Of a stretch of 64,000 bases of DNA, positions 24,175-50,505 are shown piece after piece; positions within the stretch are counted from its first letter, which is position 1, and every line of letters starts with the position of its first letter. The notes beneath the pieces are model-generated. The model saw nothing but the letters and a program-made list of their open reading frames with translations, made no database searches and was not told the DNA's origin. The stretch spans positions 35,582 to 99,581 of the forward strand of contig JAVCCG010000017.1 in the NCBI GenBank assembly GCA_030765605.1, written 5' to 3'. Both the position numbers and the translations under genes were made by a program. This DNA comes from Candidatus Alcyoniella australis (GTDB taxonomy: Bacteria; Lernaellota; Lernaellaia; JAVCCG01; Alcyoniellaceae).

Positions 24175-24180
24175 CGGCGC

Positions 24181-25590: not shown

Positions 25591-25600
25591 TTTCAGAATC

Positions 25601-28046: not shown

Positions 28047-28073
28047 CGAAGCTATCGGATGCTCTCGGGCATG

Positions 28074-29524: not shown

Positions 29525-29528
29525 CTTC

Positions 29529-29750: not shown

Positions 29751-29762
29751 CGCGCTCCAGCG

Positions 29763-30020
29763 TTATTGCGTCAGACTGCCCGGCGGGCGATGCGATTCTC
29801 CGCCGGAGCCGTAAAGCATCAATCGATCGGCCAGCTCGAGTCGGCAGCGCAGGCACAGCAGCATCTCGATGCGCTGGCAGACCTCGTTCTCGAGCTCGTG
29901 CGCGGTGCGCGGATCGTCGGCCAGCCTGCGGACCGCAGCCACGAGATCGGCCTCAGGGTCGGTCTCGGGCAGCATGCCGTCGAACCCGGAGACCAACTCT
30001 ACACGCACATGATAGAACAA
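29763..30020 (-). CDS. hypothetical protein (85 aa)
   Basis: ORF only. CxxC...CLRC pair suggests possible metal binding. Confidence 0.3.
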   Translation of the reverse strand: MFYHVRVELVSGFDGMLPETDPEADLVAAVRRLADDPRTAHELENEVCQRIEMLLCLRCRLELADRLMLYGSGGESHRPPGSLTQ

Positions 30021-30107
30021 ACGCGACGGCGGCAGCTCGGCCCCGCAATGGTCGCAGCGCCTGTCCGCCTAGTCCCTGCCCGCCTGGTCCCTGTCCGATG
30101 GTTCCAT

Positions 30108-31505
30108 CTAAGCCTCAAATCTGAGCGCCGCAATCAGCGCCAGCGCCGCGGGCTCGAGCTCGTGCGGCTCTAGGGTGCGCGGATCGAGCAGCAGCCGTTC
30201 GCGGCTGATGCGCGCGATCAACGGTGGATCGCCACGGCGCAGCCTTGCGGCCAGCTCGTCCACCGAAACCGCGAGCGGCTCGATCGCCACAGCGCGGGTC
30301 GGCAGTTCGATCAACGGCAGCGCGCCGCCCCCGGCGCGACTGGTCTCGTCGACGATCTCGAGCTTGGCCGCGCCCTGCGGCAGCGACGCCAGTAGCTCGA
30401 CCAACCGTGCGGCGCGCTGTTGCAACTGCGTTGGATCGATGGTCAGGGCAGCCAGGGTCGGCACCTCGCGTATCGCGGTTTGCGGGTCGAGCGAGAGCCG
30501 CAGGGTCGCCTCCAGAGCGGCCAGGGTCATCTTGTCCAGGCGCAGAGCGCGCGCCAGCGGATGGCGCTTGCAGCGCGCGATCAGTTCGGACTTGCCCGCC
30601 AGGATCCCGGCCTGCGGTCCGCCGAGCAGCTTGTCGCCCGAGAACGTGACCAGGTCCACGCCCTCGTCGAGCACTTGGCGCGCGGTGGGCTCGTCGCCCA
30701 ATCCCCACTGCGCGAGGTCGATCAGGCAGCCCGAGCCCAGGTCCTCGACCAGCGGCAGGCCGTGTTCGCGGCCAAGCGCTGTCAGTTCGCCGCGCGAGAC
30801 CTCTTGGGTAAAGCCGACGATGCGGTAGTTGCTGGTGTGCGCGCGCAGCAGCAGCGCAGTGTCCGGGCCGATGGCCTGTCGGTAGTCGCTCAGGTGGGTC
30901 TTGTTGGTCGAACCGACCTCGACCATCTGGGCGCCAGAGGCGGCCATCACTTCTGGAATGCGGAACGATCCGCCGATCTCGACCAGCTGCCCGCGGCTGA
31001 CGATCACCTGTTTGTCGCCGGCCAACGCAGCCAGGGCCAAAAGCACCGCGCCGGCGTTGTTGTTCACGGCGAACGCGTCCTGCGCACCCGTGGCCTCGAT
31101 CAGCAGCTCGCGCACCAGATCGTGGCGCGAACCGCGCTCGCCGCGCTCCAGGTCGTACTCCAGGGTCGAGTAGCTCACTGCGCAACGCTGCGCAGCCCGG
31201 GCCGCCTCGGCGGCCAAACGGCTGCGGCCCAGGTTGGTGTGAAGCACGATTCCCGTGGCGTTGAGCACCGGCTCGAGGCGCGGCCGCAATCTACGTTGCA
31301 GCTCGCCGGACACCAGCTGGGGCCAGCTCGCGGACTGGGGCGGCCCTGCGCCCTGGATGATAGCCTGCCGTACACGCTCCACGGCTGAGCGTGCCGCGGC
31401 CCCCACGTGGGTCCGGCCGTGTTTCTCGATCAGGCCCTTGACCGGCTCGAGTTCGAGCAGCGCTCCCACCTGGGGCAGGCTGCGCAACGCATCTTTAGCA
31501 GTCAT
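30108..31505 (-). CDS. selA: L-seryl-tRNA(Sec) selenium transferase (selenocysteine synthase)
   Basis: 465 aa. Long colinear similarity to my recollection of E. coli SelA (VLHTNLGR, SYSTLEYDL, VNNNAGAVLL, VIVSRGQLVEIGGSFRIPEVM, FSGDKLLGGPQAGI, DKMTLAALEATLRL). Confidence 0.85.
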   Translation of the reverse strand: MTAKDALRSLPQVGALLELEPVKGLIEKHGRTHVGAAARSAVERVRQAIIQGAGPPQSASWPQLVSGELQRRLRPRLEPVLNATGIVLHTNLGRSRLAAEAARAAQRCAVSYSTLEYDLERGERGSRHDLVRELLIEATGAQDAFAVNNNAGAVLLALAALAGDKQVIVSRGQLVEIGGSFRIPEVMAASGAQMVEVGSTNKTHLSDYRQAIGPDTALLLRAHTSNYRIVGFTQEVSRGELTALGREHGLPLVEDLGSGCLIDLAQWGLGDEPTARQVLDEGVDLVTFSGDKLLGGPQAGILAGKSELIARCKRHPLARALRLDKMTLAALEATLRLSLDPQTAIREVPTLAALTIDPTQLQQRAARLVELLASLPQGAAKLEIVDETSRAGGGALPLIELPTRAVAIEPLAVSVDELAARLRRGDPPLIARISRERLLLDPRTLEPHELEPAALALIAALRFEA

Positions 31506-34815: not shown

Positions 34816-34990
34816 CCTGCAGTTCTCCCGCCGCCCGCTGACGCGGGCCGTCATGCTTACCAATAATCCGGGTTTGCAATGGAGCGCCGGACCTGTCCGG
34901 CCCAGATTTGCCAAAGCATAGGGAAAGGGGTCGCGCCAGTCAACGCCGGTTGGTTACTGTTTCGCCGTGGACTACTAGGCTAGTGGAAAA

Positions 34991-35058
34991 GATCGAGAAA
35001 TCGATCTTTATGTGTAGGCTCGCCGGGGGCACCTTTGAGGTGCCAGCAAAACTCGCGC
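34991..35058 (+). repeat. palindrome-containing intergenic repeat element, copy C (diverged core)
   Basis: GATCGAGAAATCGATC...GTGTAGGCTCGCC...GGCACCTTTGAGGTGCC...AAAACTCGCGC matches the core of copies A/B. Confidence 0.7.
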
Positions 35059-35344
35059 ATAAAGGTTGGTTTTTAACAACGACCAATCCCGCGTCGCGGA
35101 GAGCATCGTTGGACAATGATTATGGTCGCTCGCGTGCCTTGCTGCAGCTCATAGCTGCCTCGCGGGGTGTTCGAAATTTATTTTGAGGTGGGCTGCGTGC
35201 TTTTCCACGCGTATGTCGAAGAAAACGTGCGTGGAGAACCTTGTTCGGCTGACATGCTGACTGTTGAGGGTCGCGGATACTGTCAAAGGCGGCATGCACT
35301 CCGACATTAATAAATTTCGTTCCAATGCCCCGCGAGCGCTTACT

Positions 35345-35368
35345 AATATTGTTTAAACAAACAATATT
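35345..35368. repeat. AT-only inverted repeat AATATTGTTT-aaac-AAACAATATT
   Basis: 10-bp perfect arms immediately downstream of the DegT-like gene stop. Confidence 0.3.
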
Positions 35369-35374
35369 CCCCCG

Positions 35375-36496
35375 CTACACCACCGCCCGGACCTGTTCGA
35401 TGACGTACTCGACCTGGGGCTGGGTCAGGTCGGGATAGAGCGGCAAGGCGATGGAGCGCGCGCCGATCGACTCGGCGACCAGGAAGTCACTGGGCTGATA
35501 CCCCAGCTCTTGGCGCAGGTAGGTGTGCAGATGCAGCGGTCGGAAGAACACGCCCGTGCCCACGCCGCGTTCGCCCAGTTGCTGGATGATCTCGTGACGG
35601 CGCGAGGCTTCGACCCAGATCGTGAACAGGTTGCGCGCGCTTTTCGAGCCGGGCCGAACTCGCGGAAAGTAGACGTTCTCGATCCGGTCGAACGCCTTTT
35701 CGTAGCGCTTGCAGATTTCGTCGCGCCGCGACCATAACTCCTCAATGCGCCGCAGTTGCGGCAACAGCAGCGCCGCGCGCAGGTCGTCCATCTCGCTGTC
35801 GAATCCCAAGGCGTCGATGTCGCAGGGCATGTGCAGACAGTCGCATCGATCGGCCTGCGTTTCGCTGACGCTGAGATTGCGCAGCCGCCTGAGGCGCTGG
35901 GCCAGGTCCGAATCATTTAGCACGATCGCGGCGCCTTGGCCCGCGCTGATGTTGGCAGTGGAGTGGAACCCCAGGCAGGCCGCGTCGGAAAGCTGGCCGG
36001 GACGGACCCCCTCGCGGCGGCCCTCCAGGCAATGCGAGGCGTCTTCGATAAGCAGTAGGTGCGAACGGTCGGCGATCTCGCGCAGCATGGCCATGTCGGC
36101 CATCTGACCATAGAGGTGCATCGGCACGATCGCCTTGGTCTGCGGCGTGATCGAGGCTTCGATCCGTTCGGCGTTGATGTTGCCGGTATCGGGCTCAACA
36201 TCCACGAACGCGGGTTTGGCGCCGGCGTGCATGATCGCGCTCACGGTTTCCAGCGGGCTCAGCGGCGAGAGGATCACCTCGTGGTCGCGGCCCACGTCCA
36301 GTGCGTGTAGCGCGAGCGTTATCGCATTCGTATTGTTGTTGACGGCCACACAGTGGCGCACGCCGAGCACCTGAGCCAGTCCGCTTTCCAGCCGCGTCAC
36401 GCGATCGCTGCTGCACAGCAGTGGCCGCTGCAGCGCATCCATCGCTTGCTCGATCTCGTCGTGTCCCAAACAGTGACGGTAAAGCTCGATCTTCAT
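35375..36496 (-). CDS. DegT/DnrJ/EryC1/StrS-fold PLP-enzyme homologue, apparently lacking the Schiff-base lysine
   Basis: 373 aa with family-typical architecture. The motif region reads LGFHSTANISAGQGAA, where canonical members have FSFHxxKNxxxGEGG, so the Lys position appears to be Ala. Confidence 0.5.
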   Translation of the reverse strand: MKIELYRHCLGHDEIEQAMDALQRPLLCSSDRVTRLESGLAQVLGVRHCVAVNNNTNAITLALHALDVGRDHEVILSPLSPLETVSAIMHAGAKPAFVDVEPDTGNINAERIEASITPQTKAIVPMHLYGQMADMAMLREIADRSHLLLIEDASHCLEGRREGVRPGQLSDAACLGFHSTANISAGQGAAIVLNDSDLAQRLRRLRNLSVSETQADRCDCLHMPCDIDALGFDSEMDDLRAALLLPQLRRIEELWSRRDEICKRYEKAFDRIENVYFPRVRPGSKSARNLFTIWVEASRRHEIIQQLGERGVGTGVFFRPLHLHTYLRQELGYQPSDFLVAESIGARSIALPLYPDLTQPQVEYVIEQVRAVV

Positions 36497-36499
36497 GGC

Positions 36500-38248
36500 T
36501 TAAACGGAGCCTCCACAGCAGCTTTGGTTTCGGTCATGCTCGTCCGGGGGTTGCCCGTCCGCGTCATCATCATCGTCGCCCGCAGTGTCGTCGTCATCAT
36601 TATCGTAATCGTCGTCGCCCGCCGGCTCCCAGGGGAATTCGCCGATCACCGGCAGGCGTAGGGTGGTCTGATCGCCGAAGACGATCGTGTTGGTCTGATC
36701 CAGCGGCAATCCGATTTCGCCCGGCGTGAGGCCTGGATTGATAGCGAAGAACGGCGATTCGGAGCTGGAGATCAGCACGCCGATGCGATGGCCGGTGTTG
36801 AACGCGTGGCTGGTCGACCACAGGTCGATTGTAAGCTGCGCCGCCTCGCCGGGAACCAGCGCGAGCTGTTGTTCGAATCCCTGGCGGAAGCGCGCGCGCA
36901 GGATGCCGTTGACGATCAGGATCATTCGGCCGTCGGGATAGAGGTCGACCAGGTAGGCGGTGACGTCGGTGTCCGCACGGTCGCTGATCAGCTCCACGTT
37001 GAGCAGTACTTTGCCCGTGACCTCCACCGGCTGGGGCAGCGGCTCGCTCTGGAAGTACAGCACGTCGTCGCGCTCAAGGTAGCTTGTCAGGTCGCAGGGC
37101 CCGGACAGTGCGCTCATTGAGCGGCCGCAGCGGGTGGGCAGCGGATCGTCCGGGTCGAACAGGTAGCTCAGGGTGCCCTCCGCAGGCGGATCGATCGACA
37201 GCGCGGCGTCAACGGTCGGGTAGAGCTTGACCTCGTGCTGTCCCGGCGGCGGCCAGCTCTCGCCGTACTGCCAGCTGTTGCCCGGCGCGTCGGGGTCGCT
37301 CACATCGCCCATGGTGTAGTAGCTCACCGCCGGCCAGTTGAACCCGTCCAACGTGCCCTCCAACGCCCGGTCGAGGAAGTCGTCCAGCGGATCCTTGCGC
37401 GGCGGTTTGTAGCAGCGCCGAGCGTTTTCCGGGAAGGTCAGCTCGCCTATGGTGTTCAGGCCGAAGGTGGCGTGGGTCCAGGGGCCGATCACCAGGTACT
37501 GTTGCTCGGCGCCCGCATGGCTGAAGATCTCGAATCCGCGGATCGCGCCCTCGGAGAAGAAGTCGTACCAGCCGCCAAAGTGGAACGCCGGGCTTTCCAG
37601 GTACGGTTCGCGCGTAGCCAGGTCGACCTGCTCCCAGTACTCGTCGTATGCCGGATGGGCCAGCATCTCGGGCAGGCGGAACAGGCTGCCCTGGCCCTGA
37701 AGCCAGCCGGTGATGTCGCCCTCGCGCAGCACGCCGCCCTGGAGAAAGCCGATGTGATAAAGCGTGGGCGAGGCCGCGGCCATCACCTGACCAGCCAGCT
37801 GATCCGAGGCCGCGCCGGAGAGCATGTATTGCAGAATCGCCAGGCCCGAGTAGCCCTGGCCGACGATCGTGCCGTTGTACCAGGGCATCAGCTCGACGGC
37901 GTGCACCGTGTCCAGGCCGTCGCGCAGCTCGCCCCAGCCGTCGCAGCGAAACACGCAGTCCAAGCCCTGGGATGCGCCGCGGCCGCGGGCGTCCTGAATC
38001 ACCACCGCGCGGCCCTCGTCGGCCAGCGCTCCGTAAGTGACCATCTGCAGCTTGTCGTAGGGTGTGCGCAACAACAGCGTGGGCAGGCGGTCGCCCAGTT
38101 GGTAGCCGCCGGGCAGGTAGATATCCGTGGCTAGATTGACGCTGTCGCGCATCGGCCACGAGAGGGGAAAGTAGAGGAACGCTTGGGCCGCCGCGGGCAG
38201 CAGCAGCGCCAGAGCCACGATCACCGCACACGCCGTTGACCTGCGCAT
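36500..38248 (-). CDS. CocE/NonD family (S15-like) alpha/beta hydrolase, secreted, with C-terminal poly-Asp tail
   Basis: Signal peptide, LLRTPYDK N-terminal motif and an Asp-rich C-terminus (DDDYDNDDDDTAGDDDDDADG). Confidence 0.5.
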   Translation of the reverse strand: MRRSTACAVIVALALLLPAAAQAFLYFPLSWPMRDSVNLATDIYLPGGYQLGDRLPTLLLRTPYDKLQMVTYGALADEGRAVVIQDARGRGASQGLDCVFRCDGWGELRDGLDTVHAVELMPWYNGTIVGQGYSGLAILQYMLSGAASDQLAGQVMAAASPTLYHIGFLQGGVLREGDITGWLQGQGSLFRLPEMLAHPAYDEYWEQVDLATREPYLESPAFHFGGWYDFFSEGAIRGFEIFSHAGAEQQYLVIGPWTHATFGLNTIGELTFPENARRCYKPPRKDPLDDFLDRALEGTLDGFNWPAVSYYTMGDVSDPDAPGNSWQYGESWPPPGQHEVKLYPTVDAALSIDPPAEGTLSYLFDPDDPLPTRCGRSMSALSGPCDLTSYLERDDVLYFQSEPLPQPVEVTGKVLLNVELISDRADTDVTAYLVDLYPDGRMILIVNGILRARFRQGFEQQLALVPGEAAQLTIDLWSTSHAFNTGHRIGVLISSSESPFFAINPGLTPGEIGLPLDQTNTIVFGDQTTLRLPVIGEFPWEPAGDDDYDNDDDDTAGDDDDDADGQPPDEHDRNQSCCGGSV

Positions 38249-39501
38249 CAGTCGAACCAGTAGCTCGTGCCCAGCACGATGCTGGTCGAGATGCCGTTTA
38301 CCGCGACCTTGTCCCCCGCGGGATTCACCGTGTCGCCGTTGCCCAGGTTGAGCAGCAGGCCCAAGCTGGTGTAGGTGCGGTTGGTGCGATAGCCGCCCTG
38401 CATAGTCAATCCGATCCAGTGCACCTTGAGGATTCCGGTGTCCGCGAGCTCATAGGGGTCCGGCGCCGCGGAGCGGTTGGTGTAGGCGCCCGCGGCTACG
38501 GTGTAGCGCTCACGGATTAGGAACTCCATACCCGCATTATAGTTGATCACCTGCAGCAGCGCTGCGTTTCCCGGCTGCTGAGTACCCGTGGCCAGGGTCA
38601 ACAGGTTCTGCGCCGCGAAGTAGCTCAGATCGAGGCTCAGCGTGATCCACGGCCGAGGCATCATCGCCGTACCGAGCACCACGGTGAACGGAAAGGCGGT
38701 CTCGGCCTTAAGCGAGTTGACGATTTTGGAGCGGCCGCTTCGTTGCAAATGATCGGTGTGGGTCACGACCTTGGTGAATCCCGAGCGGTAGAGCGGCAAG
38801 CCCTGGCGCAGGCAGATCCCGATCCGCCACCATTCAAAGGGCCGGAATTGTGCGCCCAGGTGCGGGACCAAGCCGTGGTTGGTGGTCTTGAGTTGGAACA
38901 CCCGGTCGTCGTAGCCGCCGGCGTCGTAGTCTACGTAGGTCGCGCTGTTGGCCTCCTTGCGGTCGTAAAAGTAGAAAAGCGACAGCCCCAGCGAGACGTG
39001 TTCGGCGACTCTGATCGAGTAGCCCGGCCCCAGCAGGTAGGTGCGCTGGGCTTGGCGCAGATCGAGGTTGACCTCGGCCGGTTCCCCCTGCCAGCTCGCG
39101 TTGGACAGGGTCAGGTCGGCGTCGATGTTCTCGTTGCTCGCCACCAGGGTCGAGAACCCGATGACTCCCGGGCCCAGGCGTCTGATCGCCGCGCCGCCGG
39201 TGGGATAGAAGTTGAGCGATCCCAGCCGCAACCGCTCGCCGCCGGAGTAGTCCGAGATCTCCACCAGCTTGCTTTCCAGCGCGCGTCCCGAGAGGCTGAA
39301 GCTGTCGTAGTCGGCCTCGATCGGCCCGGCCGGGTTGTAGTACCAACCCGAGGGATCGGCCGACAGCGCGCAATAGGCTCCGCCCAGACCGAAGGCCCGC
39401 TGCCCCTGCACCACGTTGAAGTAGTTGAATAGCTGCGCACGCGCCGGCGCGGCCCATCCCAGGACGAGCAGCGCCGAGAGCAGCAGCAGGCTTCGACGCA
39501 T
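38248..39501 (-). CDS. FadL/TodX-family outer-membrane transport protein
   Basis: Signal peptide, FGLGGAYCALSADPSGWYYNPAG (FadL N-terminal signature) and an aromatic C-terminus. TGATG stop/start overlap with the CocE gene. Confidence 0.5.
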   Translation of the reverse strand: MRRSLLLLSALLVLGWAAPARAQLFNYFNVVQGQRAFGLGGAYCALSADPSGWYYNPAGPIEADYDSFSLSGRALESKLVEISDYSGGERLRLGSLNFYPTGGAAIRRLGPGVIGFSTLVASNENIDADLTLSNASWQGEPAEVNLDLRQAQRTYLLGPGYSIRVAEHVSLGLSLFYFYDRKEANSATYVDYDAGGYDDRVFQLKTTNHGLVPHLGAQFRPFEWWRIGICLRQGLPLYRSGFTKVVTHTDHLQRSGRSKIVNSLKAETAFPFTVVLGTAMMPRPWITLSLDLSYFAAQNLLTLATGTQQPGNAALLQVINYNAGMEFLIRERYTVAAGAYTNRSAAPDPYELADTGILKVHWIGLTMQGGYRTNRTYTSLGLLLNLGNGDTVNPAGDKVAVNGISTSIVLGTSYWFD

Positions 39502-39516
39502 TGCGCCCGCCGTGCT

Positions 39517-40065
39517 CTACTCGACCGTGAATTCGGCCTGGCCCAGCAGGCCGTTTTGAGCGTCGATCACCTCGACGCGCCAACGTCCGGTCTGCGAGGG
39601 TGCGATCGTCTTGTACGAGTAGGTGCGGAACGGCGTGCTGCGGATCTCGAGTGCGATGCGCGAGACCGGCTGATCCTCGTAGTACCAGACGTGGGTCACG
39701 CTGGTGGGCTCGACGAACGGCTCGAGGGCCACGCGCGAGAGGCAGTAGACACGGCCCACATCCGCGGCAAAGACCTCGGAGGGGCTCACGGCCTCGTGAT
39801 CCTCCACGCCTAGGCAGAACACGAGCTGCACCGAACGTTCCAACAACGTTTCTTGCTGGGGTGCCGCCGCAGTCGGCAAGGCCGCGGGTGCCGGTGTGGG
39901 CGTGGGAGTAGGCGTGGGAGTGGGAGTAGGAGTAGGAGTAGGAGTAGGAGTGGGAGTAGGAGTAGGCGTGGGAGTAATCGGCCCCGGATCCTGTCCCTGT
40001 TGGGCCGCCGCGGGCAGGGCCGTGAGCAGCACGAATAGCAGGCAGATCAGCAGGCTGAGCCTCAT
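39517..40065 (-). CDS. secreted protein with (Thr-Pro)14 linker, function unknown
   Basis: Signal peptide, then TPTPTP... repeat, then a roughly 110-aa C-terminal domain. Confidence 0.5.
   Translation of the reverse strand: MRLSLLICLLFVLLTALPAAAQQGQDPGPITPTPTPTPTPTPTPTPTPTPTPTPTPTPAPAALPTAAAPQQETLLERSVQLVFCLGVEDHEAVSPSEVFAADVGRVYCLSRVALEPFVEPTSVTHVWYYEDQPVSRIALEIRSTPFRTYSYKTIAPSQTGRWRVEVIDAQNGLLGQAEFTVE
39893..39976. repeat. tandem hexanucleotide repeat (14 units, GGNGTR-like) encoding (TP)14
   Basis: 84 bp of near-perfect 6-nt units within the CDS at 39517..40065. Confidence 0.8.
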
Positions 40066-40161
40066 GACGTTATCTCCTTCATAATTTTCCGGTGTGGACA
40101 GGATCGACGGCCAATCTATAGGATGGTGCGTTTCATGTCCACGCGCTTTGGAGGTGCTTCG

Positions 40162-42114
40162 ATGTCGATATCCAGACTGACAACTCTGGTGCTGGTCGCG
40201 TTCCTTATAGCGTGTCCAACGCTGTGTGCGGCCCAGGACGACGGGTTCGCAAACTACCTGCAGATCAGCTATGCCCGGGGCGGATCGCTCTCGCCCGAGG
40301 GCTCGCGGCTCGTCTATCTGGACAACGGCGGCGGCACGTATCAGGTCTACCTGCGCGACCTGACGGCTGACCAGAGCGCGCCCCCGCGGCAGCTCACCGA
40401 CTTTGCCGAGCCGGTTGAGTTCGCCGTGTATTTGCCGACCCGGGAGCGGGTGCTGATCGGATCATCCGTAGGCGGCAACGAGCGCACCCAGTTGCTGCTG
40501 CTCGACCCGGCCACGGGCGAATACGAGGCGTTGACCAGCGCGCCGGAGGTGATCCACCGTTTCGGCTGCTTCAGCCGCGACGGCCGCTACATCGCTTACG
40601 CTGCCAATGCGCGTGATCAGGCCCACTTCGACATCTATGTGATGGACATGAACACGCGCGAGGCGCGCCGAGTTTTGACCCGCGACGGATACAACGACGC
40701 CGAGAGCTTCTCTCCCGACGGCAAACAGCTGGTCGTCAGCTCCTGGGAGAGCAACTACGACAACAATCTGTACCTACTGGATCTAGGCGACGGCGAGATG
40801 CGGCTGCTCACCAAGCACGTGGGCTGGGCGACCTACGAGTACCCGCGTTTCGACCGCAAGGGTAAGCATCTGTGGTTGACCTCCAACTACAGCCAAAACT
40901 TCAACAACCCGGCGCGAATCAAACTTCGCAACGGCAAACTGCGCTTCGAGCGGTTGATCAACCGCGAGACCGAGGCCCTGGTGCTCTCCGAGGACCCGCA
41001 ACGCCTGGCCTACGTGATCAACGACGACGGCTACTCGATGCTGATGCTTTGGGACCCCAAGGGCTGGCGCGAGCTGGAGCTGCCGCAGATCCCGCGCGGC
41101 GTGATCCGCAACCTCTCGATCAGCCCCGACGGCACCAAGCTGGCATTCTCGCTCTCGTCGCCGACCCTGCCCAGCAGCGTGTTCGTGGTCGATATCGAGG
41201 CGCGCAACCTGCGGATGGTCAGCGTGCCGAATTTCGCGGGCATCGACCCGACGGGATTCGTCGAACCTGAATTGATTAAATACCAATCGGCCGACGGCAA
41301 GAGCGTCCCGGCGTTTCTCTACGTACCTCCCGGCGTCAAGGCCGACGGCTCCAACCCGGCGTTGATCTATGCCCACGGCGGTCCCGAGGGCCAGGAGCGG
41401 CCGGACTTCGGCATCACCTTTCAGTATTTCCTCTCGCGCGGCTACCTGATCTTCGCCCCCAATCCGCGGGGCTCCGCGGGCTACGGCAAGCTCTACATTC
41501 ATGCCGACGACAAGGATAAGCGGCCGGCCGCGGTGGCCGACTACGCCTGGGGCGCCAAGTGGCTGGTCGAGAACAACTGGGCTGATCAAAGCAAGATCGG
41601 GATCTACGGCGGCTCCTACGGCGGCTACGTGGTGATGGCCATGCTCGCCCAGTTCCCGCAGACCTGCGCCGCCGGGGTGAGCTTTGTGGGCATCTCCAAC
41701 CTGGTGAGCTTTTTGCAAAACACCGGCGCCTGGCGACGGGCGATCCGCGAGGCGGAGTACGGCTCACTTGAGTTCGACCTGGAGCTGCTGCAGCGCATCA
41801 GTCCGATCAACAAAGTCGAGCTGATCAGCTCGCCGCTGATGGTGATCCAGGGCGCCAACGATCCGCGCGTGCCGCAGCAGGAGGCCGACCAGATCGTGGC
41901 CGCGTTGCGTGCGCGCAACGTGCCGGTGGAATATCTGCTCTACGCCGACGAGGGGCACGGCTTGGCCAAACGCAAGAACCGGCTCGAGGCCTATCCCAAG
42001 ATGGGCGCGTTTTTCGACCTCTATCTGCGCGGGATCCAGCCTGAGCCCGAAAAACAGACTGAGCAGAACGCAACGGACGAAGACGGGGAGCAGCCGCCTG
42101 CGACCGAGCAATAA
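40162..42114 (+). CDS. S9 family peptidase (prolyl oligopeptidase/dipeptidyl aminopeptidase-like, with N-terminal beta-propeller)
   Basis: Signal peptide and GGSYGGY nucleophile motif. C-terminal DEGHG region. GGAGG SD upstream of ATG 40162. Confidence 0.7.
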   Translation: MSISRLTTLVLVAFLIACPTLCAAQDDGFANYLQISYARGGSLSPEGSRLVYLDNGGGTYQVYLRDLTADQSAPPRQLTDFAEPVEFAVYLPTRERVLIGSSVGGNERTQLLLLDPATGEYEALTSAPEVIHRFGCFSRDGRYIAYAANARDQAHFDIYVMDMNTREARRVLTRDGYNDAESFSPDGKQLVVSSWESNYDNNLYLLDLGDGEMRLLTKHVGWATYEYPRFDRKGKHLWLTSNYSQNFNNPARIKLRNGKLRFERLINRETEALVLSEDPQRLAYVINDDGYSMLMLWDPKGWRELELPQIPRGVIRNLSISPDGTKLAFSLSSPTLPSSVFVVDIEARNLRMVSVPNFAGIDPTGFVEPELIKYQSADGKSVPAFLYVPPGVKADGSNPALIYAHGGPEGQERPDFGITFQYFLSRGYLIFAPNPRGSAGYGKLYIHADDKDKRPAAVADYAWGAKWLVENNWADQSKIGIYGGSYGGYVVMAMLAQFPQTCAAGVSFVGISNLVSFLQNTGAWRRAIREAEYGSLEFDLELLQRISPINKVELISSPLMVIQGANDPRVPQQEADQIVAALRARNVPVEYLLYADEGHGLAKRKNRLEAYPKMGAFFDLYLRGIQPEPEKQTEQNATDEDGEQPPATEQ

Positions 42115-42230
42115 CGGGTCGTGGCCGGGCTTGCACGCATTTATGCTCACAGGTAGCCTCTAGCCTGGATAATCCGGGTCGACCTTGCCCAAGAAGGTCA
42201 CGGGGATAAACAAGTAAACGGAGATCGAAG

Positions 42231-44435
42231 ATGAAGCGCTGGATATTTATGGCGATGCTGCTGGCGACCCTGGCCCTTGTGTTTACCATCGGCGGCGGTT
42301 GCAGCTGCAGCGGCGATGATGACGACGACGACGACGATGATGACGATGACGATGACAACCAAGGCGATGTGCCCGACGAGGCGTTTCAGGAGATCTGCGG
42401 CGAGCGCGACTGGCTTGATACCTTGCAGCCGACCGAGCTGGTCTACGACTCGGGCAACGAGTTCGGCAACGACGGCCGCCTGCATTACGACCTGGCCGAG
42501 GGCGACGTGGCCGCGGTGCACTTTATTCCCGAGCACTCGCTGTGGATCAAGAAGCTCCGCGTGCACTTCACCGGCGAGGGGGGGCCGATCCGGGTCCACG
42601 TCTATGAGGGGTACGGCCGCTCGCGTCCGAACACCGACGTCGACCTGACCGAACCGATCGAGCAGGATATCGAAACCGACGCCGGATGGGTCGAGATCGA
42701 CATCAGCGACCGCCAGCTGGTGGTGCTGCCCTCGAACCACTTCTGGGTCGGTTACGAGCACGTCAACGAGCAGCCCTACATCAGCATGGACAACGGCGTG
42801 GACAACGATTCGACCCACAGCCTGATCCGCATCGAGGCCGCGCAGCACGATATCAGCCCCTTCGATTGGATCGGCCTGGGCGACGTGGCGTTTATGATCC
42901 AGGTTACGGGCGACTACTTCTGCGAACTGGATATCAACGAGCGCCAGTTCACCAACGTCAGCGAGCAGGCCGGACTCTCCGAGCTCTCGGCTGTGCGCAT
43001 CAACTGGGGCGACGTCAACAACGATGGCTGGGACGACATGCTCCTGCATCGTCTGGGCTATATCGACGAAACCGCCAATCTGCTGCTCAACAATCAGGAC
43101 GGTACGTTCGAGAACGTCACCGACGATTCGGACCTCGACGGCCACTACGCGAGCTTCGGCGGCCTGGCCGATTTTGACAACGACGGCAACCTCGATGTGT
43201 ACCTCGGGGTCAACGTACCCAATGAGGACGCCGATCCGCCGGACAACGGCGCGCGTTCGCTGATCATGCTCGGCGACGGCGAGGGCGGATTCACTGAAGT
43301 CGCGGGCAACGGCGTGGACCTCGAAGCCTCGACGTCCGCGGCCTCCATCGCCGACTACGACGCCGACGGCGACCTCGACATTTACGTGGGCAACTGGCTG
43401 GTCAAGTACCCCTCTCCGGCGTGCTGGTCCGACTTCATTTTTAACGGCAAGGGCAACGGCAAGTTCGATGAGACCTCCGCCGCGACCGGCATCGCCGTCC
43501 TTGAGGCGCGTCCGAGCTACGGCGTGACTTGGGTCGACTTCGACATGGACAACGACATGGACATCTCGGTCGCCAACTACGGCCGCGTCGACAACTTCCT
43601 GCTCGAAAACAAGAACGGACACTTCACCGACGTCGCGCCCCAAGTCGAGCTCGACCGCCAGGGCGTGGGCACCGGCGGCAACACCTTCGGCACCGACTGG
43701 GGCGACGCCAACAACGACGGCTACTTCGATACCTACCAGGCCGAGATCGCCCACCCGCGCTACCAGCCCAGCTCGGACATCGGCTCGATGATGTTCGGAA
43801 TGGGCCCGGACGAGGACTGGCTGTTCCAGAATGTTACCGAAGCCGCCGGGATCTTCTACGACGAGGGGCAGGTCGACCCCAGCTGGGTCGACTACAACAA
43901 CGACGGCCGCCTCGATTTCGCGCTCAGCGTGCTCTACACGTTGCAATACTTCCGGCTCTACCGCCAGGAAGAGGACGGTACGTTCACCGACGTGACCTAC
44001 ATCACCGGCACCGAGATTCTGGACACCAACAACAACGCCTGGGCCGACTTTGACAACGACGGCGACATGGACCTGATGAACATGGACCGCCGTTCCGGCG
44101 GGCACGCCAACCTGTTCCGCAACGACATCGGCAACGAGCTGAACTGGCTCGAGATCAGCCTGCGCGGCACCGACTCCAACCGCATGGCCGTGGGCGCGCG
44201 GGTCGAGATTTCCAGCCCGAGCATCGAGTACCAGGTGCGCTACGTGCAGGCGGGCAAGGGACACGCCTGTAGCCAGCATTCGGCGCGGCTGCACTTCGGC
44301 CTGAACACCGACGATGTGGTGCAGATCCTGACCGTCTACTGGCCCTCGGGATTGGAAGAGGAGTTCGGCGAGATCCCGGCCAACAGCTGGATCAAGATCA
44401 CGGAGGGCGACGACGACTACGAGGTCGTGCAGTAA
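42231..44435 (+). CDS. CRTAC1-family lipoprotein (FG-GAP/VCBS repeats plus ASPIC/UnbV domain) with poly-Asp linker
   Basis: Lipobox GGGCSC, then D14. Repeated DxDxDGxxD calcium-loop motifs. C-terminal RMAVGARVEI...HFGL (UnbV/ASPIC-like). Confidence 0.6.
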   Translation: MKRWIFMAMLLATLALVFTIGGGCSCSGDDDDDDDDDDDDDDNQGDVPDEAFQEICGERDWLDTLQPTELVYDSGNEFGNDGRLHYDLAEGDVAAVHFIPEHSLWIKKLRVHFTGEGGPIRVHVYEGYGRSRPNTDVDLTEPIEQDIETDAGWVEIDISDRQLVVLPSNHFWVGYEHVNEQPYISMDNGVDNDSTHSLIRIEAAQHDISPFDWIGLGDVAFMIQVTGDYFCELDINERQFTNVSEQAGLSELSAVRINWGDVNNDGWDDMLLHRLGYIDETANLLLNNQDGTFENVTDDSDLDGHYASFGGLADFDNDGNLDVYLGVNVPNEDADPPDNGARSLIMLGDGEGGFTEVAGNGVDLEASTSAASIADYDADGDLDIYVGNWLVKYPSPACWSDFIFNGKGNGKFDETSAATGIAVLEARPSYGVTWVDFDMDNDMDISVANYGRVDNFLLENKNGHFTDVAPQVELDRQGVGTGGNTFGTDWGDANNDGYFDTYQAEIAHPRYQPSSDIGSMMFGMGPDEDWLFQNVTEAAGIFYDEGQVDPSWVDYNNDGRLDFALSVLYTLQYFRLYRQEEDGTFTDVTYITGTEILDTNNNAWADFDNDGDMDLMNMDRRSGGHANLFRNDIGNELNWLEISLRGTDSNRMAVGARVEISSPSIEYQVRYVQAGKGHACSQHSARLHFGLNTDDVVQILTVYWPSGLEEEFGEIPANSWIKITEGDDDYEVVQ

Positions 44436-44542
44436 CTTCGATCAGCGATACGTCAGCCACAAGGGGACGGCCCGGGCCGTCCCCTTTTTTTCATCTGCTC
44501 TCGCCCCAAGTCCCACGCCCGAGCTGTTAGAATTCGCGCACT

Positions 44543-46969
44543 GTGAAAAAAATGACGGTCCTGATTGTACTGATTGCGCTGCTGTTCTGCGGCTGCCAGG
44601 CCGTGATGCTCAACGGTGCCGAGGTACCGGCCACGCTGCGCGCGCCGCTGCTCGAGCGTCCCGCTGATCCGGCCTTGCCGCCGTGGTTGGAGCAGCGCCC
44701 CAAGCTGTTCGAGTTCTCGAGCTGGGATCAATCGTATCTGCGCAACGATCCCTACCCCGCGCGGCTGCTCGGCGGCATGGCCGTGGGCAATGGCCAGGTT
44801 TTCGCCCTTGAGGGGCTGAGCCTGCCGCTGGACACGTTGCACAATGTGGCGGGTCCGGACTACCAGCTGGAGTCGCGCTTTTTTTCGGACATCGTACTCG
44901 AGCTGCGTCGCGGACTGCGCCGCGTGCATTGGGAGCGGCAGCGCATCCGGCGCGTGGCGGGCACGGCGGTAAACGTCATCGACCGCAGTCGCGACGGCCT
45001 TTCGCTGTACAGCATCGACTTCGCGCCGCGAGGCGCCATGATCGAGGGCAGCGCTGCCCAGCGCTGTTTGGTGCGGCTGAGCGTGGTCCACAACAACGGG
45101 CCGCAGGCTGTCGACGATCTGGAACTCGAGTTGCGTAGCGTGTTGGGCAGCTCGTCCGACGAGCTGATCGTCGAACGCATTGAGGGCACGGGGCGCAACT
45201 TGGCCATCGGCACCAACGCCCACCCGTTGCGCTGTCGATCGCGCGACGGCGTGCTGCGCGTGCGCGTGGGTGATTTGCAGCCCGGCGAGCAGTTCATCTG
45301 TGCGTTCTTCATCAGTTTTGCCGACGGCTCGGACGCGCGCACCGTGCTGCGGCAAGCGCTCCAGAGCGATCCCGAGGCGCTGCTGTCCGCGACCATCGAC
45401 GATTGGCGCTCGTGGATGGCCGCTGGCGCGCAAGTACGCACCTCGGATCAACGCTTTGACGAACTGCTCGAGGCGCTGCTGGTGGCGATCCGCGTGCAGA
45501 CCGCGAGTAGCGGCGCGGTCTGCGAGATGAGCCGCTACTCGTTCACCTGGCTGCGCGACATCATGGGCCCGGCGCTACTCTATCCGCTGCTGGGGCGCAT
45601 CGATGAGTATCGCGCGATGCTTGACTACTACTGGCTGGCCGCGCTGGACAACGGCGGGACAGCCAACGCGCTGCCAATCAACGTGGCCGGATTGCCCAAG
45701 GCGCAGCCGGACTGGGAGAGCTTGCCGACCGGCAGCGGACGCGAGGCGGCGGAGAGCGTGAGCTACGCGGTGCTGCACTACCGCGAGTACGTCCAGGCCA
45801 GCGGCGACTGGGAACTGCTGCGCCAACGCTACGGCATGCTGCGCCACGCGCTGATCCACCAGGACCTGCGCCACGGCTGCCTGCTGCCGTTTTCCGACGA
45901 CGAGACCTTTCGCGGCAGCCTGGCCGCTGCCCAGGGGATCTGGGCTGGAAGCGGCCTGCGCGAGACGCACCTCTCGGCCAACTCCTCGTTCCTGTTCGTG
46001 GCCGCGGCCCAGTTCATGGAGCGCGCCGCGCTCGAGCTGGACCTGCCCGAACACGCCGCGCAATACCGTCGACTGGCTGACGATGTGCGCCAGTGCACCG
46101 AGCGCTTCTACTGGCTGTCCGACGAGCGCTGCTACTCTCCGGCGCTGAAGATCGATTCGCTGCAGCCGCTGGACGAGCCGTTCGTCGACGTGACGCTTAA
46201 GCCGCTGTGGTGCGGGTACCTCGACCGCGACGACCCGCGGGCCTATACCAACCTCGAGTCAATCATCGAGCTGCTGCCCGCGCATCGCGGCCTGGTCTAC
46301 TCGCCGCTGCATCCCTATTACCAGGCTCTGGCCGGGCTGATGGGTTTCCATCGCGGGATTTGTACCGGCATGAGCTACGGCTTTTACCTGGACAATCTGG
46401 CGCAGCTGGACCATCCGCAGGCCGAGGCGCTGTTCGCGGGCTACTCCGAGTTCTTCCATCCCACGGGTACGGTCAGCGAGTACCACGTGGTCGACGACTT
46501 CGGCCGCCTGGTCTACCGCTACGACGACCAGGGGGTCCAGACCGACCAGACCGCGGCCTACCGCTCGTGGGAGGCGGGGGTCGACGCCGCGGCCATGCTG
46601 CGTTATCTGTTCGGCCTGGAGCTCGACGCGCCCCGCGGCCGGATTGTTGTTGCCCCGCATTTGCCCGCAGGCATGGACTTCGCGCGGCTCGAGGGGACGA
46701 GCTGCGGCGCCACGCGCTTCGATCTGGCGATCGAGCGCCTGCCGCAGGGTTTGCGCGTAGTGATCAGCGGGCTCGACGGACCGCTGTCGGTGGACGCCCG
46801 GCTTTCGCTGGCCGGGCCGATCGACGAGCTGTTGGTCAACGGTCGACCGCTGCTCGCGCCCAGCGTCAATAAATGGGATCGCTGGTCAATGCGGACCGCC
46901 GGACTGTCCGCCGGGCCGGACACGCCGCTGACCATTGAGGTCCGCTCGCATCTCGATCTGAATTATTAG
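44543..46969 (+). CDS. lipoprotein, possible six-hairpin glycoside hydrolase (GH15/GH63-like)
   Basis: Lipobox LLFCGC. YSFTWLRD matches the YxxxWxRD motif of glucoamylase-like GHs. About 800 aa. Confidence 0.3.
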   Translation: MKKMTVLIVLIALLFCGCQAVMLNGAEVPATLRAPLLERPADPALPPWLEQRPKLFEFSSWDQSYLRNDPYPARLLGGMAVGNGQVFALEGLSLPLDTLHNVAGPDYQLESRFFSDIVLELRRGLRRVHWERQRIRRVAGTAVNVIDRSRDGLSLYSIDFAPRGAMIEGSAAQRCLVRLSVVHNNGPQAVDDLELELRSVLGSSSDELIVERIEGTGRNLAIGTNAHPLRCRSRDGVLRVRVGDLQPGEQFICAFFISFADGSDARTVLRQALQSDPEALLSATIDDWRSWMAAGAQVRTSDQRFDELLEALLVAIRVQTASSGAVCEMSRYSFTWLRDIMGPALLYPLLGRIDEYRAMLDYYWLAALDNGGTANALPINVAGLPKAQPDWESLPTGSGREAAESVSYAVLHYREYVQASGDWELLRQRYGMLRHALIHQDLRHGCLLPFSDDETFRGSLAAAQGIWAGSGLRETHLSANSSFLFVAAAQFMERAALELDLPEHAAQYRRLADDVRQCTERFYWLSDERCYSPALKIDSLQPLDEPFVDVTLKPLWCGYLDRDDPRAYTNLESIIELLPAHRGLVYSPLHPYYQALAGLMGFHRGICTGMSYGFYLDNLAQLDHPQAEALFAGYSEFFHPTGTVSEYHVVDDFGRLVYRYDDQGVQTDQTAAYRSWEAGVDAAAMLRYLFGLELDAPRGRIVVAPHLPAGMDFARLEGTSCGATRFDLAIERLPQGLRVVISGLDGPLSVDARLSLAGPIDELLVNGRPLLAPSVNKWDRWSMRTAGLSAGPDTPLTIEVRSHLDLNY

Positions 46970-46983
46970 CAGTCGATTAAAGT

Positions 46984-50500: not shown

Positions 50501-50505
50501 GTCGA

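What the first reader, a model, noticed from the sequence alone, without database searches (positions are those of the whole stretch)
35375..40065. Operon of a secreted TP-repeat protein, a FadL-like OM channel, a CocE/NonD hydrolase and a DegT-fold protein missing the catalytic lysine
Four minus-strand genes are tightly packed: a 16-nt gap, a TGATG overlap and a 3-nt gap. FadL-type channels import hydrophobic compounds across the outer membrane. CocE/NonD enzymes are esterases, amidases or peptidases acting on such compounds. In the last gene, the DegT-family motif where the PLP Schiff-base Lys normally sits (FSFHxxKNxxxGEGG) reads LGFHSTANISAGQGAA, which places Ala at the Lys position. DegT-fold members that lack this Lys (for example the ColD/E1-type dehydratases, which have His) show altered chemistry. 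An Ala variant would be a PLP/PMP-dependent enzyme without internal aldimine formation, or a pseudoenzyme. Together these look like an uptake-and-catabolism or detoxification module for a hydrophobic ester or amide substrate, and the system is uncharacterised.
Basis: partly seen in the sequence, partly recalled or inferred. Interest (0 to 1): 0.65.

Follow-up and report, generated by a model that had tools for sequence, protein, structure and literature searches.

The report
Envelope hydrolase operon with dead aminotransferase
Four tightly packed genes in an uncultured Antarctic-lake bacterium encode a secreted protein, a FadL-type outer-membrane barrel, an intact secreted serine hydrolase and a sugar-aminotransferase look-alike that has lost its catalytic lysine and much of its cofactor site; the arrangement is found nowhere else, so it is a curiosity and not a conserved new system.

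Summary
Four minus-strand genes (35375-40065) are separated by 15 nt, a 1-nt TGATG overlap and 3 nt. They encode a DUF2914 protein with 14 TP repeats, a FadL/TodX-fold barrel, a CocE/NonD (S15) hydrolase with Ser/Asp/His/Tyr intact, and a full-length DegT homologue.

In the DegT homologue, Ala181 aligns with ArnB K188, perosamine synthase K186 and E1 residue 220. All 119 closest homologues have Lys there. The protein breaks 23 of 75 near-invariant family columns, against a mean of 1.2 for other members. The hydrolase control breaks 2 of 69. It is therefore not an aminotransferase, and it is not a ColD/E1-type enzyme either.

The window comes from the MAG Candidatus Alcyoniella australis (Ca. 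Lernaellota), a predicted proteolytic anaerobe.

Relatives of each gene sit in other contexts: DegT in nucleotide-sugar clusters, the barrel in CHASE2-cyclase/SH3/M48 operons, and the hydrolase alone.

Best reading: a lineage-specific envelope hydrolase/channel operon with a catalytically dead, probably still selected, DegT-fold passenger. That passenger carries a unique CxCx4C triad that remains unexplained. Interest is modest.

The parts
40113..40141 (-). Sigma-70-like promoter candidate (TGGACA-17-TAGATT) upstream of the first gene. An AAGGAG Shine-Dalgarno lies 8 nt before the ATG at 40065.
   Evidence: 4 promoter-like sites in the region, against 0.9 expected; none inside the cluster; sequence. 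This is a consensus match only.
39517..40065 (-). Gene 1: exported 182-aa protein. It has an N-terminal signal-like hydrophobic segment ending AAA/QQ, 14 TP repeats (residues 31-58, window 39892-39975) and a C-terminal DUF2914 domain (residues 121-181, window 39523-39705).
   Evidence: PF11141, E 2e-22; DNA repeat. The signal peptide is judged by inspection. The single-sequence AF2 model was poor (pLDDT 51.6).
38248..39501 (-). Gene 2: FadL/TodX-superfamily outer-membrane beta-barrel (417 aa) with a signal peptide and an N-terminal hatch segment. The hatch carries the NPA motif (N56-P57-A58, window 39328-39336).
   Evidence: AF2 pLDDT 91.7, pTM 0.87. Foldseek top hits are FadL, TodX, TbuX, CymD and the FadL-like chains of Bacteroidota BAM complexes, E 1e-15 to 1e-10. 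There are 961 representative relatives. 52/74 hit PF03349. N56/P57/G59 are invariant. There is a weak PorV/PorQ NCBIfam hit (30.7 bits, below cut-off).
36500..38248 (-). Gene 3: Sec-exported CocE/NonD (peptidase S15) serine hydrolase of 582 aa. Catalytic residues are Ser134 (37847-37849), Asp229 (37562-37564) and His259 (37472-37474), with oxyanion Tyr64 (38057-38059). It has an Asp-rich C-terminal tail ending CCGGSV (about 36503-36619).
   Evidence: alignment to CocE 1ju3: S117/D259/H287/Y44 equivalents kept; all four invariant in 119 homologues; only 2 of 69 conserved columns differ; tail shared with the 5 closest homologues only.
35375..36496 (-). Gene 4: full-length DegT/DnrJ/EryC1/StrS-fold protein of 373 aa with no signal peptide. 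Ala181 (35954-35956) replaces the Schiff-base Lys, and 22 further near-invariant family positions are changed. It has a lineage-specific Cys triad C218-x-C220-x4-C225 (35822-35845).
35345..35368 (-). Perfect 10-bp AU-rich hairpin starting 7 nt after the DegT stop codon. It has no U tract and may mark the end of the transcription unit. A roughly 460-nt non-coding stretch follows before carB.
   Evidence: (dG -15.6 kcal/mol, z -3.9). The terminator scan found no canonical terminator.
40123..42114 (+). Divergently transcribed neighbour: an exported S9 prolyl-oligopeptidase-family peptidase with a beta-propeller. It shares the short intergenic region with gene 1.
   Evidence: (Peptidase_S9, 149 bits).

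Best explanation
This is a lineage-specific, probably co-transcribed cluster in Candidatus Alcyoniella australis (Ca. Lernaellota).

The first three genes make envelope proteins:
- a Sec-exported DUF2914 protein on a TP linker;
- a FadL/TodX-fold outer-membrane barrel with the NPA hatch motif;
- a Sec-exported CocE/NonD (S15) serine hydrolase that looks catalytically competent.

The most likely job, by inference, is nutrient acquisition at the envelope. The hydrolase would cleave an ester or amide bond of a peptide-like or hydrophobic substrate in the periplasm or at the surface. The barrel would conduct the hydrophobic substrate or product across the outer membrane. The divergently encoded S9 peptidase would act alongside.

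The fourth gene is a displaced paralogue of a nucleotide-sugar 4-aminotransferase. It has lost the Schiff-base lysine and most other cofactor-contacting residues. It cannot form an internal aldimine, very probably does not hold PLP normally, and is not an aminotransferase. It is still a full-length, collinear ORF, so it is more likely a retained non-catalytic or repurposed protein than a decaying pseudogene. Nothing beyond adjacency ties it to the three envelope genes.

Shown: gene structure, families, catalytic-residue status and lack of synteny elsewhere. Inferred: co-transcription, localisation, substrate class and the role of the DegT-like protein.
For: - Packing and a single promoter-like site upstream.
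- Source organism and its predicted proteolytic lifestyle.
- Hydrolase triad and Tyr intact, with only 2/69 conserved columns changed.
- Barrel fold, NPA motif and PF03349 membership of relatives.
- DegT: Ala at the Lys column in three independent alignments and against 119/119 Lys. 23/75 near-invariant columns are broken, against a mean of 1.2 and a maximum of 6 in the family.
- Lost positions include the SxxK-loop Ser, the GEGG loop, F81 (which I take, from knowledge of the family, to be the aromatic that stacks on the cofactor ring) and the K/N of the partner-subunit loop. D152, H155 and T56 remain.
- Intact closest DegT homologues (46-49% identity) sit beside Polysacc_synt_2-type dehydratase, WbqC, acetyltransferase and glycosyltransferase genes. 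The window has none of these within reach.
- Against simple decay: the alignment is gap-free over 373 residues. Native codon-position GC is kept. In a neutral simulation the ORF stays open in only about 1% of runs at 31% amino-acid change and about 4% at 22%, before counting indels. Excess change is concentrated in conserved columns.
- Secreted peptidases surround the cluster.
Against: - No orthologous cluster exists in any searched collection, so operon function cannot be backed by conservation.
- There is no expression data. Co-transcription rests only on spacing.
- Substrate class is unknown. CocE/NonD members span esterases, acylases and peptidases.
- The selection argument for the DegT-like gene is indirect. 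There are no orthologues for dN/dS. The 119 comparison sequences were chosen by similarity to the query, which biases the column-class analysis. P(no stop) of 1-4% disfavours but does not exclude a relic.
- Signal peptides were judged by eye.
- This is a MAG, so population variants or assembly mosaics cannot be excluded.
Confidence: 0.55

Rival explanations
1. The four genes form one uptake-and-catabolism or detoxification module for a hydrophobic ester or amide. The Ala-variant DegT protein performs altered PLP/PMP-dependent chemistry, without an internal aldimine, on the imported or hydrolysed product.
For: - Tight packing, including a 3-nt gap between the hydrolase and the DegT-like gene.
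- The FadL fold and an intact hydrolase.
- Lys-less DegT-fold enzymes with real chemistry exist: ColD, E1 and SpnQ (PMC8987622).
- D152, H155 and T56 of the cofactor site remain.
Against: - No co-occurrence of any pair of the four genes in 80 + 16 + 9 related loci.
- ColD/E1/SpnQ carry His as acid/base at this position; here it is Ala with no obvious substitute.
- The cofactor-contacting Ser, the F81 aromatic, the GEGG loop and the partner-loop K/N are also lost.
- The nearest intact relatives act on nucleotide sugars, not on esters or amides.
- The DegT-like protein is cytoplasmic, while the other three are exported.
Confidence: 0.08
2. The DegT-like gene is simply a decaying relic. It would be a recently inactivated pseudogene that has not yet been disrupted, stranded at the 3' end of an unrelated operon.
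For: - It is a singleton: the best database homologue is 49-50% identical.
- 31% of near-invariant columns are changed.
- It is orphaned from any sugar-pathway partners.
- High-GC genomes keep long ORFs open by chance (one search shows many spurious long ORFs).
Against: - The ORF is collinear with the family over all 373 residues, with only 2 gap columns.
- In the neutral point-mutation simulation the frame stays open in about 1% (31% change) to 4% (22% change) of runs, and indels would lower this further.
- The GC1/GC2/GC3 pattern is that of a normal coding gene.
- Less-conserved columns changed much less than conserved ones, which uniform neutral drift does not predict (with an ascertainment caveat).
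Confidence: 0.2
3. The DegT-like protein is a non-catalytic subunit that pairs with an active DegT aminotransferase encoded elsewhere. The model is Ser4, which pairs with Ser5 in the SerTA heterotetramer.
For: - There is precedent for a Lys-less sugar-aminotransferase homologue that is required for the activity of its partner (PMC11726168).
- DegT enzymes are obligate dimers whose active sites use a loop from the partner subunit (PMC8987622).
Against: - There is no second DegT gene in the 64-kb window.
- Ser4 is truncated at both ends and adjacent to its partner. This protein is full length and isolated.
- The partner-loop residues K233 and N235, which would be donated to a partner's active site, are themselves lost.
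Confidence: 0.07
4. The FadL/PorV-like barrel is not an importer. It would be a surface anchor or export partner for the translationally coupled hydrolase, recognising the hydrolase's Asp-rich, Cys-Cys-Gly C-terminal tail, much as PorV binds T9SS cargo.
For: - The TGATG overlap couples the two genes.
- The best fold hits include the FadL-like chains of Bacteroidota BAM complexes, and there is a weak PorV/PorQ family hit.
- The tail is conserved in the hydrolase subclade.
- Distant barrel homologues are also operon-linked to a peptidase, M48.
Against: - The five hydrolase homologues with the same tail have no FadL-like gene next to them where the flank is visible.
- The PorV hit is far below the family cut-off (30.7 against 90 bits).
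- The NPA hatch motif is the hallmark of FadL-type transporters.
- No T9SS components were seen in the window.
Confidence: 0.05

Closest known systems
DegT/DnrJ/EryC1/StrS nucleotide-sugar aminotransferases (ArnB, PseC, perosamine synthase Per, QdtB)
   Same: Full-length fold-type-I DegT domain (PF01041, 312 bits). 32% identity to E. coli ArnB and 46-49% to the nearest metagenomic members. Keeps the Asp (D152) and His (H155) of the EDAxH motif and T56.
   Different: Ala instead of the Schiff-base Lys. Ser, Tyr, GEGG, the F81 aromatic and the partner-loop Lys/Asn are lost. There are no dehydratase, acetyltransferase or glycosyltransferase neighbours. All NCBIfam equivalog scores fall far below cut-off, for example PseC 255 against 423 bits.
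ColD, E1 (AscC/DdhC/RfbH) and SpnQ: PMP-dependent NDP-hexose 3-dehydratases
   Same: DegT fold with the catalytic Lys replaced (PMC8987622). The window protein also has extra Cys in the loop between the HG turn and the GxxYN motif, which is the loop where E1 carries its [2Fe-2S] ligands.
   Different: Those enzymes have His (E1 H220, ColD H188) as acid/base; here it is Ala. E1's Cys ligands C251/C253/C261 lie in an E1-specific insertion that the window protein lacks, and the residue equivalent to E1 C193 is Ser154. Sequence similarity to ColD/E1 (E 6e-8 and 4e-25) is far weaker than to aminotransferases (7e-52).
Ser4 of the SerTA heterotetramer (Serratia sp. ATCC 39006)
   Same: A sugar-aminotransferase homologue without the catalytic Lys that is nonetheless functional as a non-catalytic subunit (PMC11726168).
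   Different: Ser4 is truncated at both termini and encoded in tandem with its active partner Ser5. The window protein is full length and has no DegT neighbour.
FadL / TodX / TbuX / CymD outer-membrane hydrophobic-compound channels (PF03349), and the PorV/BamG-like FadL-fold barrels of Bacteroidota
   Same: The predicted fold superposes at TM 0.6-0.7 over more than 415 columns. It has an N-terminal hatch segment with the NPA motif. Most relatives match PF03349.
   Different: 12-15% identity to solved structures. The protein itself has no Pfam hit. Its best relatives (25-32% identity) belong to an uncharacterised subfamily that elsewhere sits in CHASE2-cyclase/SH3/M48 operons. Substrate unknown.
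Rhodococcus cocaine esterase CocE and the S15 family (PepX, alpha-amino-acid ester hydrolase)
   Same: Peptidase_S15 + PepX_C architecture. The Ser-Asp-His triad and oxyanion Tyr are conserved. E 1e-50 to CocE.
   Different: It is exported (signal peptide) and carries an Asp-rich tail ending in CCG, seen only in its five closest homologues. Substrate unknown.

Membership tests
DegT/DnrJ/EryC1/StrS sugar aminotransferases (PF01041) | Full-length sequence match to the family profile | tested here: met
   312 bits, residues 10-370 against profile 3-360/360. Collinear with 119 homologues, with only 2 gap columns.
DegT/DnrJ/EryC1/StrS sugar aminotransferases (PF01041) | Schiff-base (internal aldimine) lysine | tested here: not met
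   Ala181 aligns with Per K186, ArnB K188 and E1 position 220. 119/119 homologues have Lys.
DegT/DnrJ/EryC1/StrS sugar aminotransferases (PF01041) | Remaining cofactor-site residues: Ser of the SxxK loop, GEGG loop, F81 aromatic, partner-subunit Lys/Asn, and the Asp to the pyridine N | tested here: not met
   S176G, Y178H, E187Q, G189A, F81P, S54N, K233D and N235E, all in columns at least 95% conserved. Only D152, H155 and T56 are kept. The structural role of each residue comes from my knowledge of ArnB/PseC/Per structures and was not recomputed here.
DegT/DnrJ/EryC1/StrS sugar aminotransferases (PF01041) | Genomic association with NDP-sugar 4,6-dehydratase and other sugar-modifying or glycosyltransferase genes | tested here: not met
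   The closest intact homologues have this association. The window gene lies between an S15 hydrolase and carB, and no such genes were found among the flanking ORFs that were annotated.
ColD/E1/SpnQ PMP-dependent 3-dehydratases | His in place of the catalytic Lys | tested here: not met
   Ala181 sits at E1 position 220. The review states that His is the acid/base (PMC8987622). ColD itself was not aligned residue by residue.
ColD/E1/SpnQ PMP-dependent 3-dehydratases | E1/SpnQ [2Fe-2S] motif (E1 C193...C251-x-C253-x7-C261) | tested here: not met
   The E1 sequence was recovered from PDB searches. The motif lies in an E1-specific insertion absent from the window protein, and the C193 equivalent is S154. 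The window's own C218/C220/C225 are in different columns.
FadL/TodX outer-membrane transporters (PF03349) | Profile match to PF03349 | tested here: inconclusive
   The window protein itself has no hit. 52 of 74 aligned relatives hit PF03349, best E 4e-17.
FadL/TodX outer-membrane transporters (PF03349) | Beta-barrel with an N-terminal hatch, superposable on FadL/TodX | tested here: met
   AF2 pLDDT 91.7. Foldseek probability 1.0, TM 0.57-0.70 to FadL, TodX, TbuX and CymD. The strand count and the S3 kink could not be checked without coordinates.
FadL/TodX outer-membrane transporters (PF03349) | Conserved NPA motif in the hatch | tested here: met
   N56-P57-A58. N56 and P57 are invariant and A58 at least 90% conserved in 74 relatives. 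That NPA is a FadL hallmark comes from my own knowledge; PDB entries named 'FadL mutant delta NPA', 'P34A' and 'N33A' appear.
FadL/TodX outer-membrane transporters (PF03349) | Transport of hydrophobic substrates | not testable with these tools
   Needs an uptake assay.
CocE/NonD (peptidase S15) hydrolases | Profile matches above curated cut-offs | tested here: met
   PF02129 105 bits, PF08530 132 bits, TIGR00976 248 bits against 66.
CocE/NonD (peptidase S15) hydrolases | Ser-Asp-His triad and oxyanion Tyr | tested here: met
   S134, D229, H259 and Y64 align with CocE S117, D259, H287 and Y44. S134, D229 and H259 are invariant in all 119 homologues, and Y64 is conserved in 117 of 119.
   0/80 barrel loci have CocE or DUF2914, and 2/80 have a DegT. 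0/16 DUF2914 loci have any of the other three. 0/4 hydrolase loci and 0/5 DegT loci repeat the arrangement. No relative closer than 54% (hydrolase), 50% (DegT), 32% (barrel) or 37% (DUF2914) identity exists in the searched collections.
Ser4-type inactive aminotransferase partner | Truncated Lys-less homologue encoded next to an active partner | tested here: not met
   Full length. No second DegT gene in the window. The rest of the genome was not available.

The most novel reading that the evidence does not exclude
The Lys-less DegT-fold protein is not junk. It would be a selected, repurposed protein whose remodelled pocket has gained a lineage-specific C218-x-C220-x-H222-x2-C225 cluster. That cluster replaces the conserved Tyr218 and Trp225 in the loop next to the former cofactor site. 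The protein would bind a metal or an Fe-S centre, convergently with but not homologously to E1/SpnQ, and perform new redox or sensing chemistry in the cytoplasm, linked to the products of the upstream envelope hydrolase/channel genes.
Probability: 0.07. Interest if true: 0.65.

Novelty: new variant of a known kind. Interest (0 to 1): 0.3.

Why it matters
If the DegT-like protein is a maintained pseudoenzyme, it would be a full-length, stand-alone, Lys-less member of the sugar-aminotransferase family with a remodelled pocket. That adds to the short list of non-canonical DegT-fold proteins (ColD, E1, SpnQ, Ser4). It is also a warning against annotating such genes as aminotransferases, as the public record of this MAG does.

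The envelope trio adds a secreted S15 hydrolase to the inferred proteolytic repertoire of the little-known phylum Lernaellota. Because the arrangement is a singleton with no conservation and no expression data, its general significance is small.

Two side observations may be the more reusable leads. One is the widespread CHASE2-cyclase/SH3/M48/FadL-like operon. The other is the conserved Asp-rich, Cys-Cys-Gly C-terminus of the hydrolase subclade.

Tried and rejected
- The search for related loci with the 74-sequence barrel alignment failed because no stretch was conserved enough. It worked with 12 sequences.
- Single-sequence AlphaFold of the DUF2914 protein gave pLDDT 51.6, so it is unusable and no fold search was run. 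This used the last structure job, so the DegT-like protein could not be modelled to see whether the Cys triad clusters near the pocket.
- The E1-like Fe-S hypothesis for the Cys triad was examined. I rebuilt E1 residues 187-320 from PDB searches with chimeric queries. The E1 ligands lie in an insertion that the window protein lacks. Homology of the motif is therefore rejected, and the triad stays unexplained. Its clustering is only marginally unusual (P about 0.02-0.06).
- A search of plasmids for an RfbH/E1 homologue to align returned only ordinary Lys-containing aminotransferases.
- The papers PMC2515278 and PMC2197195 are not held.
- Rfam found nothing in the region. The repeat scan found only the TP repeat and one 18-nt identity between two signal-peptide coding regions.
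- No CHASE2, SH3 or M48 genes are in the window.
- ColD was not aligned residue by residue because no sequence was at hand.
- dN/dS was not possible because there are no orthologues.

Full report
**Source and observation**

The window is part of a 124.5-kb contig of the metagenome-assembled genome Candidatus Alcyoniella australis. This organism belongs to the phylum Ca. Lernaellota and comes from Ace Lake, Antarctica. Its describers infer a strictly anaerobic degrader of proteins and polysaccharides (PMC9324843).

The four minus-strand ORFs are real:
- 39517-40065, 182 aa
- 38248-39501, 417 aa
- 36500-38248, 582 aa
- 35375-36496, 373 aa

Only the first gene has a strong Shine-Dalgarno (AAGGAG) and a promoter-like site upstream, at 40113-40141. 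No promoter-like site lies inside the cluster. A perfect 10-bp hairpin follows the last stop codon, and then about 460 nt of non-coding DNA lead to carB. Codon-position GC and codon usage of all four genes are native. A single transcription unit is therefore plausible but not shown.

**Genes 1-3**

Gene 1 has a signal-like N terminus, 14 TP repeats and a C-terminal DUF2914 domain. Nothing is known about DUF2914.

Gene 2 has no Pfam hit of its own. An exhaustive HMMER search found 961 representative relatives, the best at 29-32% identity.
- 52 of 74 aligned relatives match PF03349, the OMPP1/FadL/TodX family.
- The family keeps an N-terminal G-x-R-A-x-G-M-G-G-A...Y-Y-N-P-A-G segment, and N56 and P57 are invariant.
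- The AlphaFold model is confident (pLDDT 91.7, pTM 0.87).
- Its best PDB matches are FadL, TodX, TbuX, CymD and the FadL-like chains of Bacteroidota BAM complexes, at TM 0.57-0.70.

'FadL-like' is therefore correct at the superfamily level.

Gene 3 is a clear CocE/NonD (S15) hydrolase. Ser134, Asp229, His259 and Tyr64 align with the triad and oxyanion Tyr of cocaine esterase. All four are essentially invariant in 119 homologues. The protein has a signal peptide.

**Gene 4, the DegT-like protein**

Ala181 aligns with:
- the Schiff-base Lys of perosamine synthase;
- E. coli ArnB K188;
- position 220 of E1 dehydrase.

All 119 closest homologues read CFSFYATKN(I/L)T(S/C)GEGGA, where the window protein reads CLGFHSTANISAGQGAA.

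The window protein differs at 23 of the 75 columns that are at least 95% conserved in those homologues. Other members differ at a mean of 1.2 and at most 6. The changed positions include S54, F81, S176, Y178, K181, E187, G189, H208/G209, K233 and N235. Kept are D152, H155 and T56. As a control for lineage divergence, the neighbouring hydrolase differs at only 2 of 69 such columns.

The intact closest DegT homologues (46-49% identity) lie in nucleotide-sugar clusters. They sit next to a Polysacc_synt_2-type dehydratase, WbqC, acetyltransferases and glycosyltransferases. The window copy has no such partners. It is a displaced sugar-aminotransferase paralogue that can no longer be an aminotransferase.

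**Relic or retained protein?**

The ORF is collinear with the family over all 373 residues, with only 2 gap columns.

I simulated neutral point mutation of the gene. At 31% amino-acid change, the level seen at formerly invariant sites, the frame stays open in about 1% of runs. At 22% change it stays open in about 4%. Indels would lower both figures further.

Mismatch to the family consensus is 31% in invariant columns, against 1.7% for other members. It is 37% against 11% in highly conserved columns. In moderately conserved and variable columns it is only 42% against 36% and 69% against 64%. Uniform neutral drift does not predict this pattern. The caveat is that the comparison set was chosen by similarity to the query.

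I therefore favour a retained protein with an abandoned or remodelled active site over a plain relic. The evidence is indirect, because no orthologue exists for dN/dS.

**The Cys triad and E1**

The protein has three Cys that none of the 119 homologues has in those columns: C218, C220 and C225, in 'DRCDCLHMPCD'. They replace the conserved Y218 and W225.

E1 and SpnQ are Lys-less DegT-fold enzymes with a [2Fe-2S] cluster (PMC8987622). To test a link, I recovered E1 residues 187-320 from the PDB. E1's ligands (C193, C251, C253, C261) include a Cys two residues after the cofactor Asp, where the window protein has Ser154. They also include a Cys-rich insertion right after the WG turn, which the window protein lacks. 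The triad is thus not the E1 motif. It lies in the same inter-motif loop but in different columns. Its clustering is only marginally unusual (P about 0.02-0.06). It remains unexplained.

**Co-occurrence**

- No relative closer than 54% (hydrolase), 50% (DegT), 32% (barrel) or 37% (DUF2914) identity exists in the collections searched.
- Around 80 genomic barrel homologues there is no CocE/NonD or DUF2914 gene. A DegT appears in only 2 of them.
- Around 16 DUF2914 homologues, none of the other three genes appears. Their conserved neighbours are a NAGPA glycosidase, a VTT/DedA protein and a MerR regulator.
- The three available contexts of the closest hydrolase homologues repeat nothing. One caveat: two of them are cut by a contig end on one side.

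The barrel's relatives instead sit in a conserved operon of CHASE2-adenylate/guanylate cyclase, an SH3 protein, an M48 peptidase and the barrel. None of those partners is in the window.

**Most likely function**

The three exported products most plausibly act together at the envelope of a proteolytic anaerobe. The divergent neighbour is an exported S9 peptidase. The wider neighbourhood holds HtrA, M18, M23, M74/LysM and YkuD proteins.

I infer that the S15 hydrolase cleaves an ester or amide bond of a peptide-like or hydrophobic substrate outside the cytoplasm. I also infer that the FadL-type barrel moves a hydrophobic substrate or product across the outer membrane. The role of DUF2914 is unknown.

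The DegT-like protein is cytoplasmic. Only adjacency links it to the other three.

They are weighed in the rival entries.

**Novelty and verdict**

Every component belongs to a known family. The unusual item is a full-length, stand-alone, Lys-less DegT-fold protein with a broadly degenerated cofactor site and a private Cys triad. That makes it a new variant of a known kind, with precedent in Ser4, ColD and E1.

It is a singleton in one MAG, without conservation or expression data. Interest is modest.

Noticed in passing
Loci L001-L040 (e.g. L001:6224-11116, L003:3768-8522, L007:6387-11155): Distant homologues (22-30% identity) of the window's FadL-like barrel sit in a conserved same-strand operon: CHASE2 + adenylate/guanylate cyclase (about 740 aa), an SH3_3 protein, a Peptidase_M48, then the FadL-like barrel. 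They occur in Nitrospirota, Desulfobacterota, Bdellovibrionota, Leptospirales, Gammaproteobacteria and others. SH3/M48 neighbours appear in 31 loci and the cyclase in 25. A full-text search for CHASE2 together with FadL found no relevant paper.
   Followed up: partly
window 36503-36619 (hydrolase C terminus); homologues P0273-P0277 (L081:8001-9746, L082:242-1966, L084:8001-9758): The hydrolase and its five closest homologues (49-54% identity) all end in a long Asp-rich tail. The tail terminates in CCGGSV, GCGCNFGL, GGCGC or GCCG, directly before a real stop codon. The other 114 homologues lack it, and no other ORF in any held locus has it. It could be a linker plus a terminal anchoring, modification or metal-binding motif. 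Its meaning is unknown.
   Followed up: partly
window 18543-19550 (+), 25601-26404 (-), 42231-44435 (+): Three lipoprotein-like ORFs have a signal peptide, then a Cys, then a run of up to 14 Asp (for example ...GGGCSCSGDDDDDDDDDDDDDDN). This is the N-terminal mirror image of the hydrolase's Asp-rich, Cys-ending tail.
   Followed up: no
window 38183-38200 and 40000-40017: An identical 18-nt stretch (TTGGGCCGCCGCGGGCAG on the + strand) encodes the LPAAAQ end of the signal peptides of both the hydrolase and the DUF2914 protein.
   Followed up: no
window 35345-35368 and 34915-35374: A perfect 10-bp AU-rich hairpin without a U tract lies just after the DegT-like stop codon (z -3.9). It is followed by an unusually long, roughly 460-nt AT-richer non-coding stretch upstream of carB. 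There was no Rfam match.
   Followed up: partly
window 22978-31505 and 40123-53971: The neighbourhood is dense in exported peptidases and cell-wall enzymes: S9 peptidase, an FG-GAP/ASPIC protein, M23, M74 + LysM, a YkuD L,D-transpeptidase, HtrA-type Trypsin_2-PDZ and an M18 aminopeptidase. It also holds patatin, selA and carB.
   Followed up: partly
L093:5587-7860 and the 15 syntenic loci L090-L105: The nearest DUF2914 homologues (31-37% identity, marine metagenomes) are about 240-aa proteins. They sit in a conserved run of MerR regulator, DUF2914 protein, NAGPA phosphodiester glycosidase and VTT/DedA protein.
   Followed up: partly
L087:11156-13125: In one genome an S15/PepX_C gene lies about 4 kb from an intact DegT homologue, on the opposite strand. 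It is only 24% identical to the window hydrolase. I judged this to be chance.
   Followed up: yes
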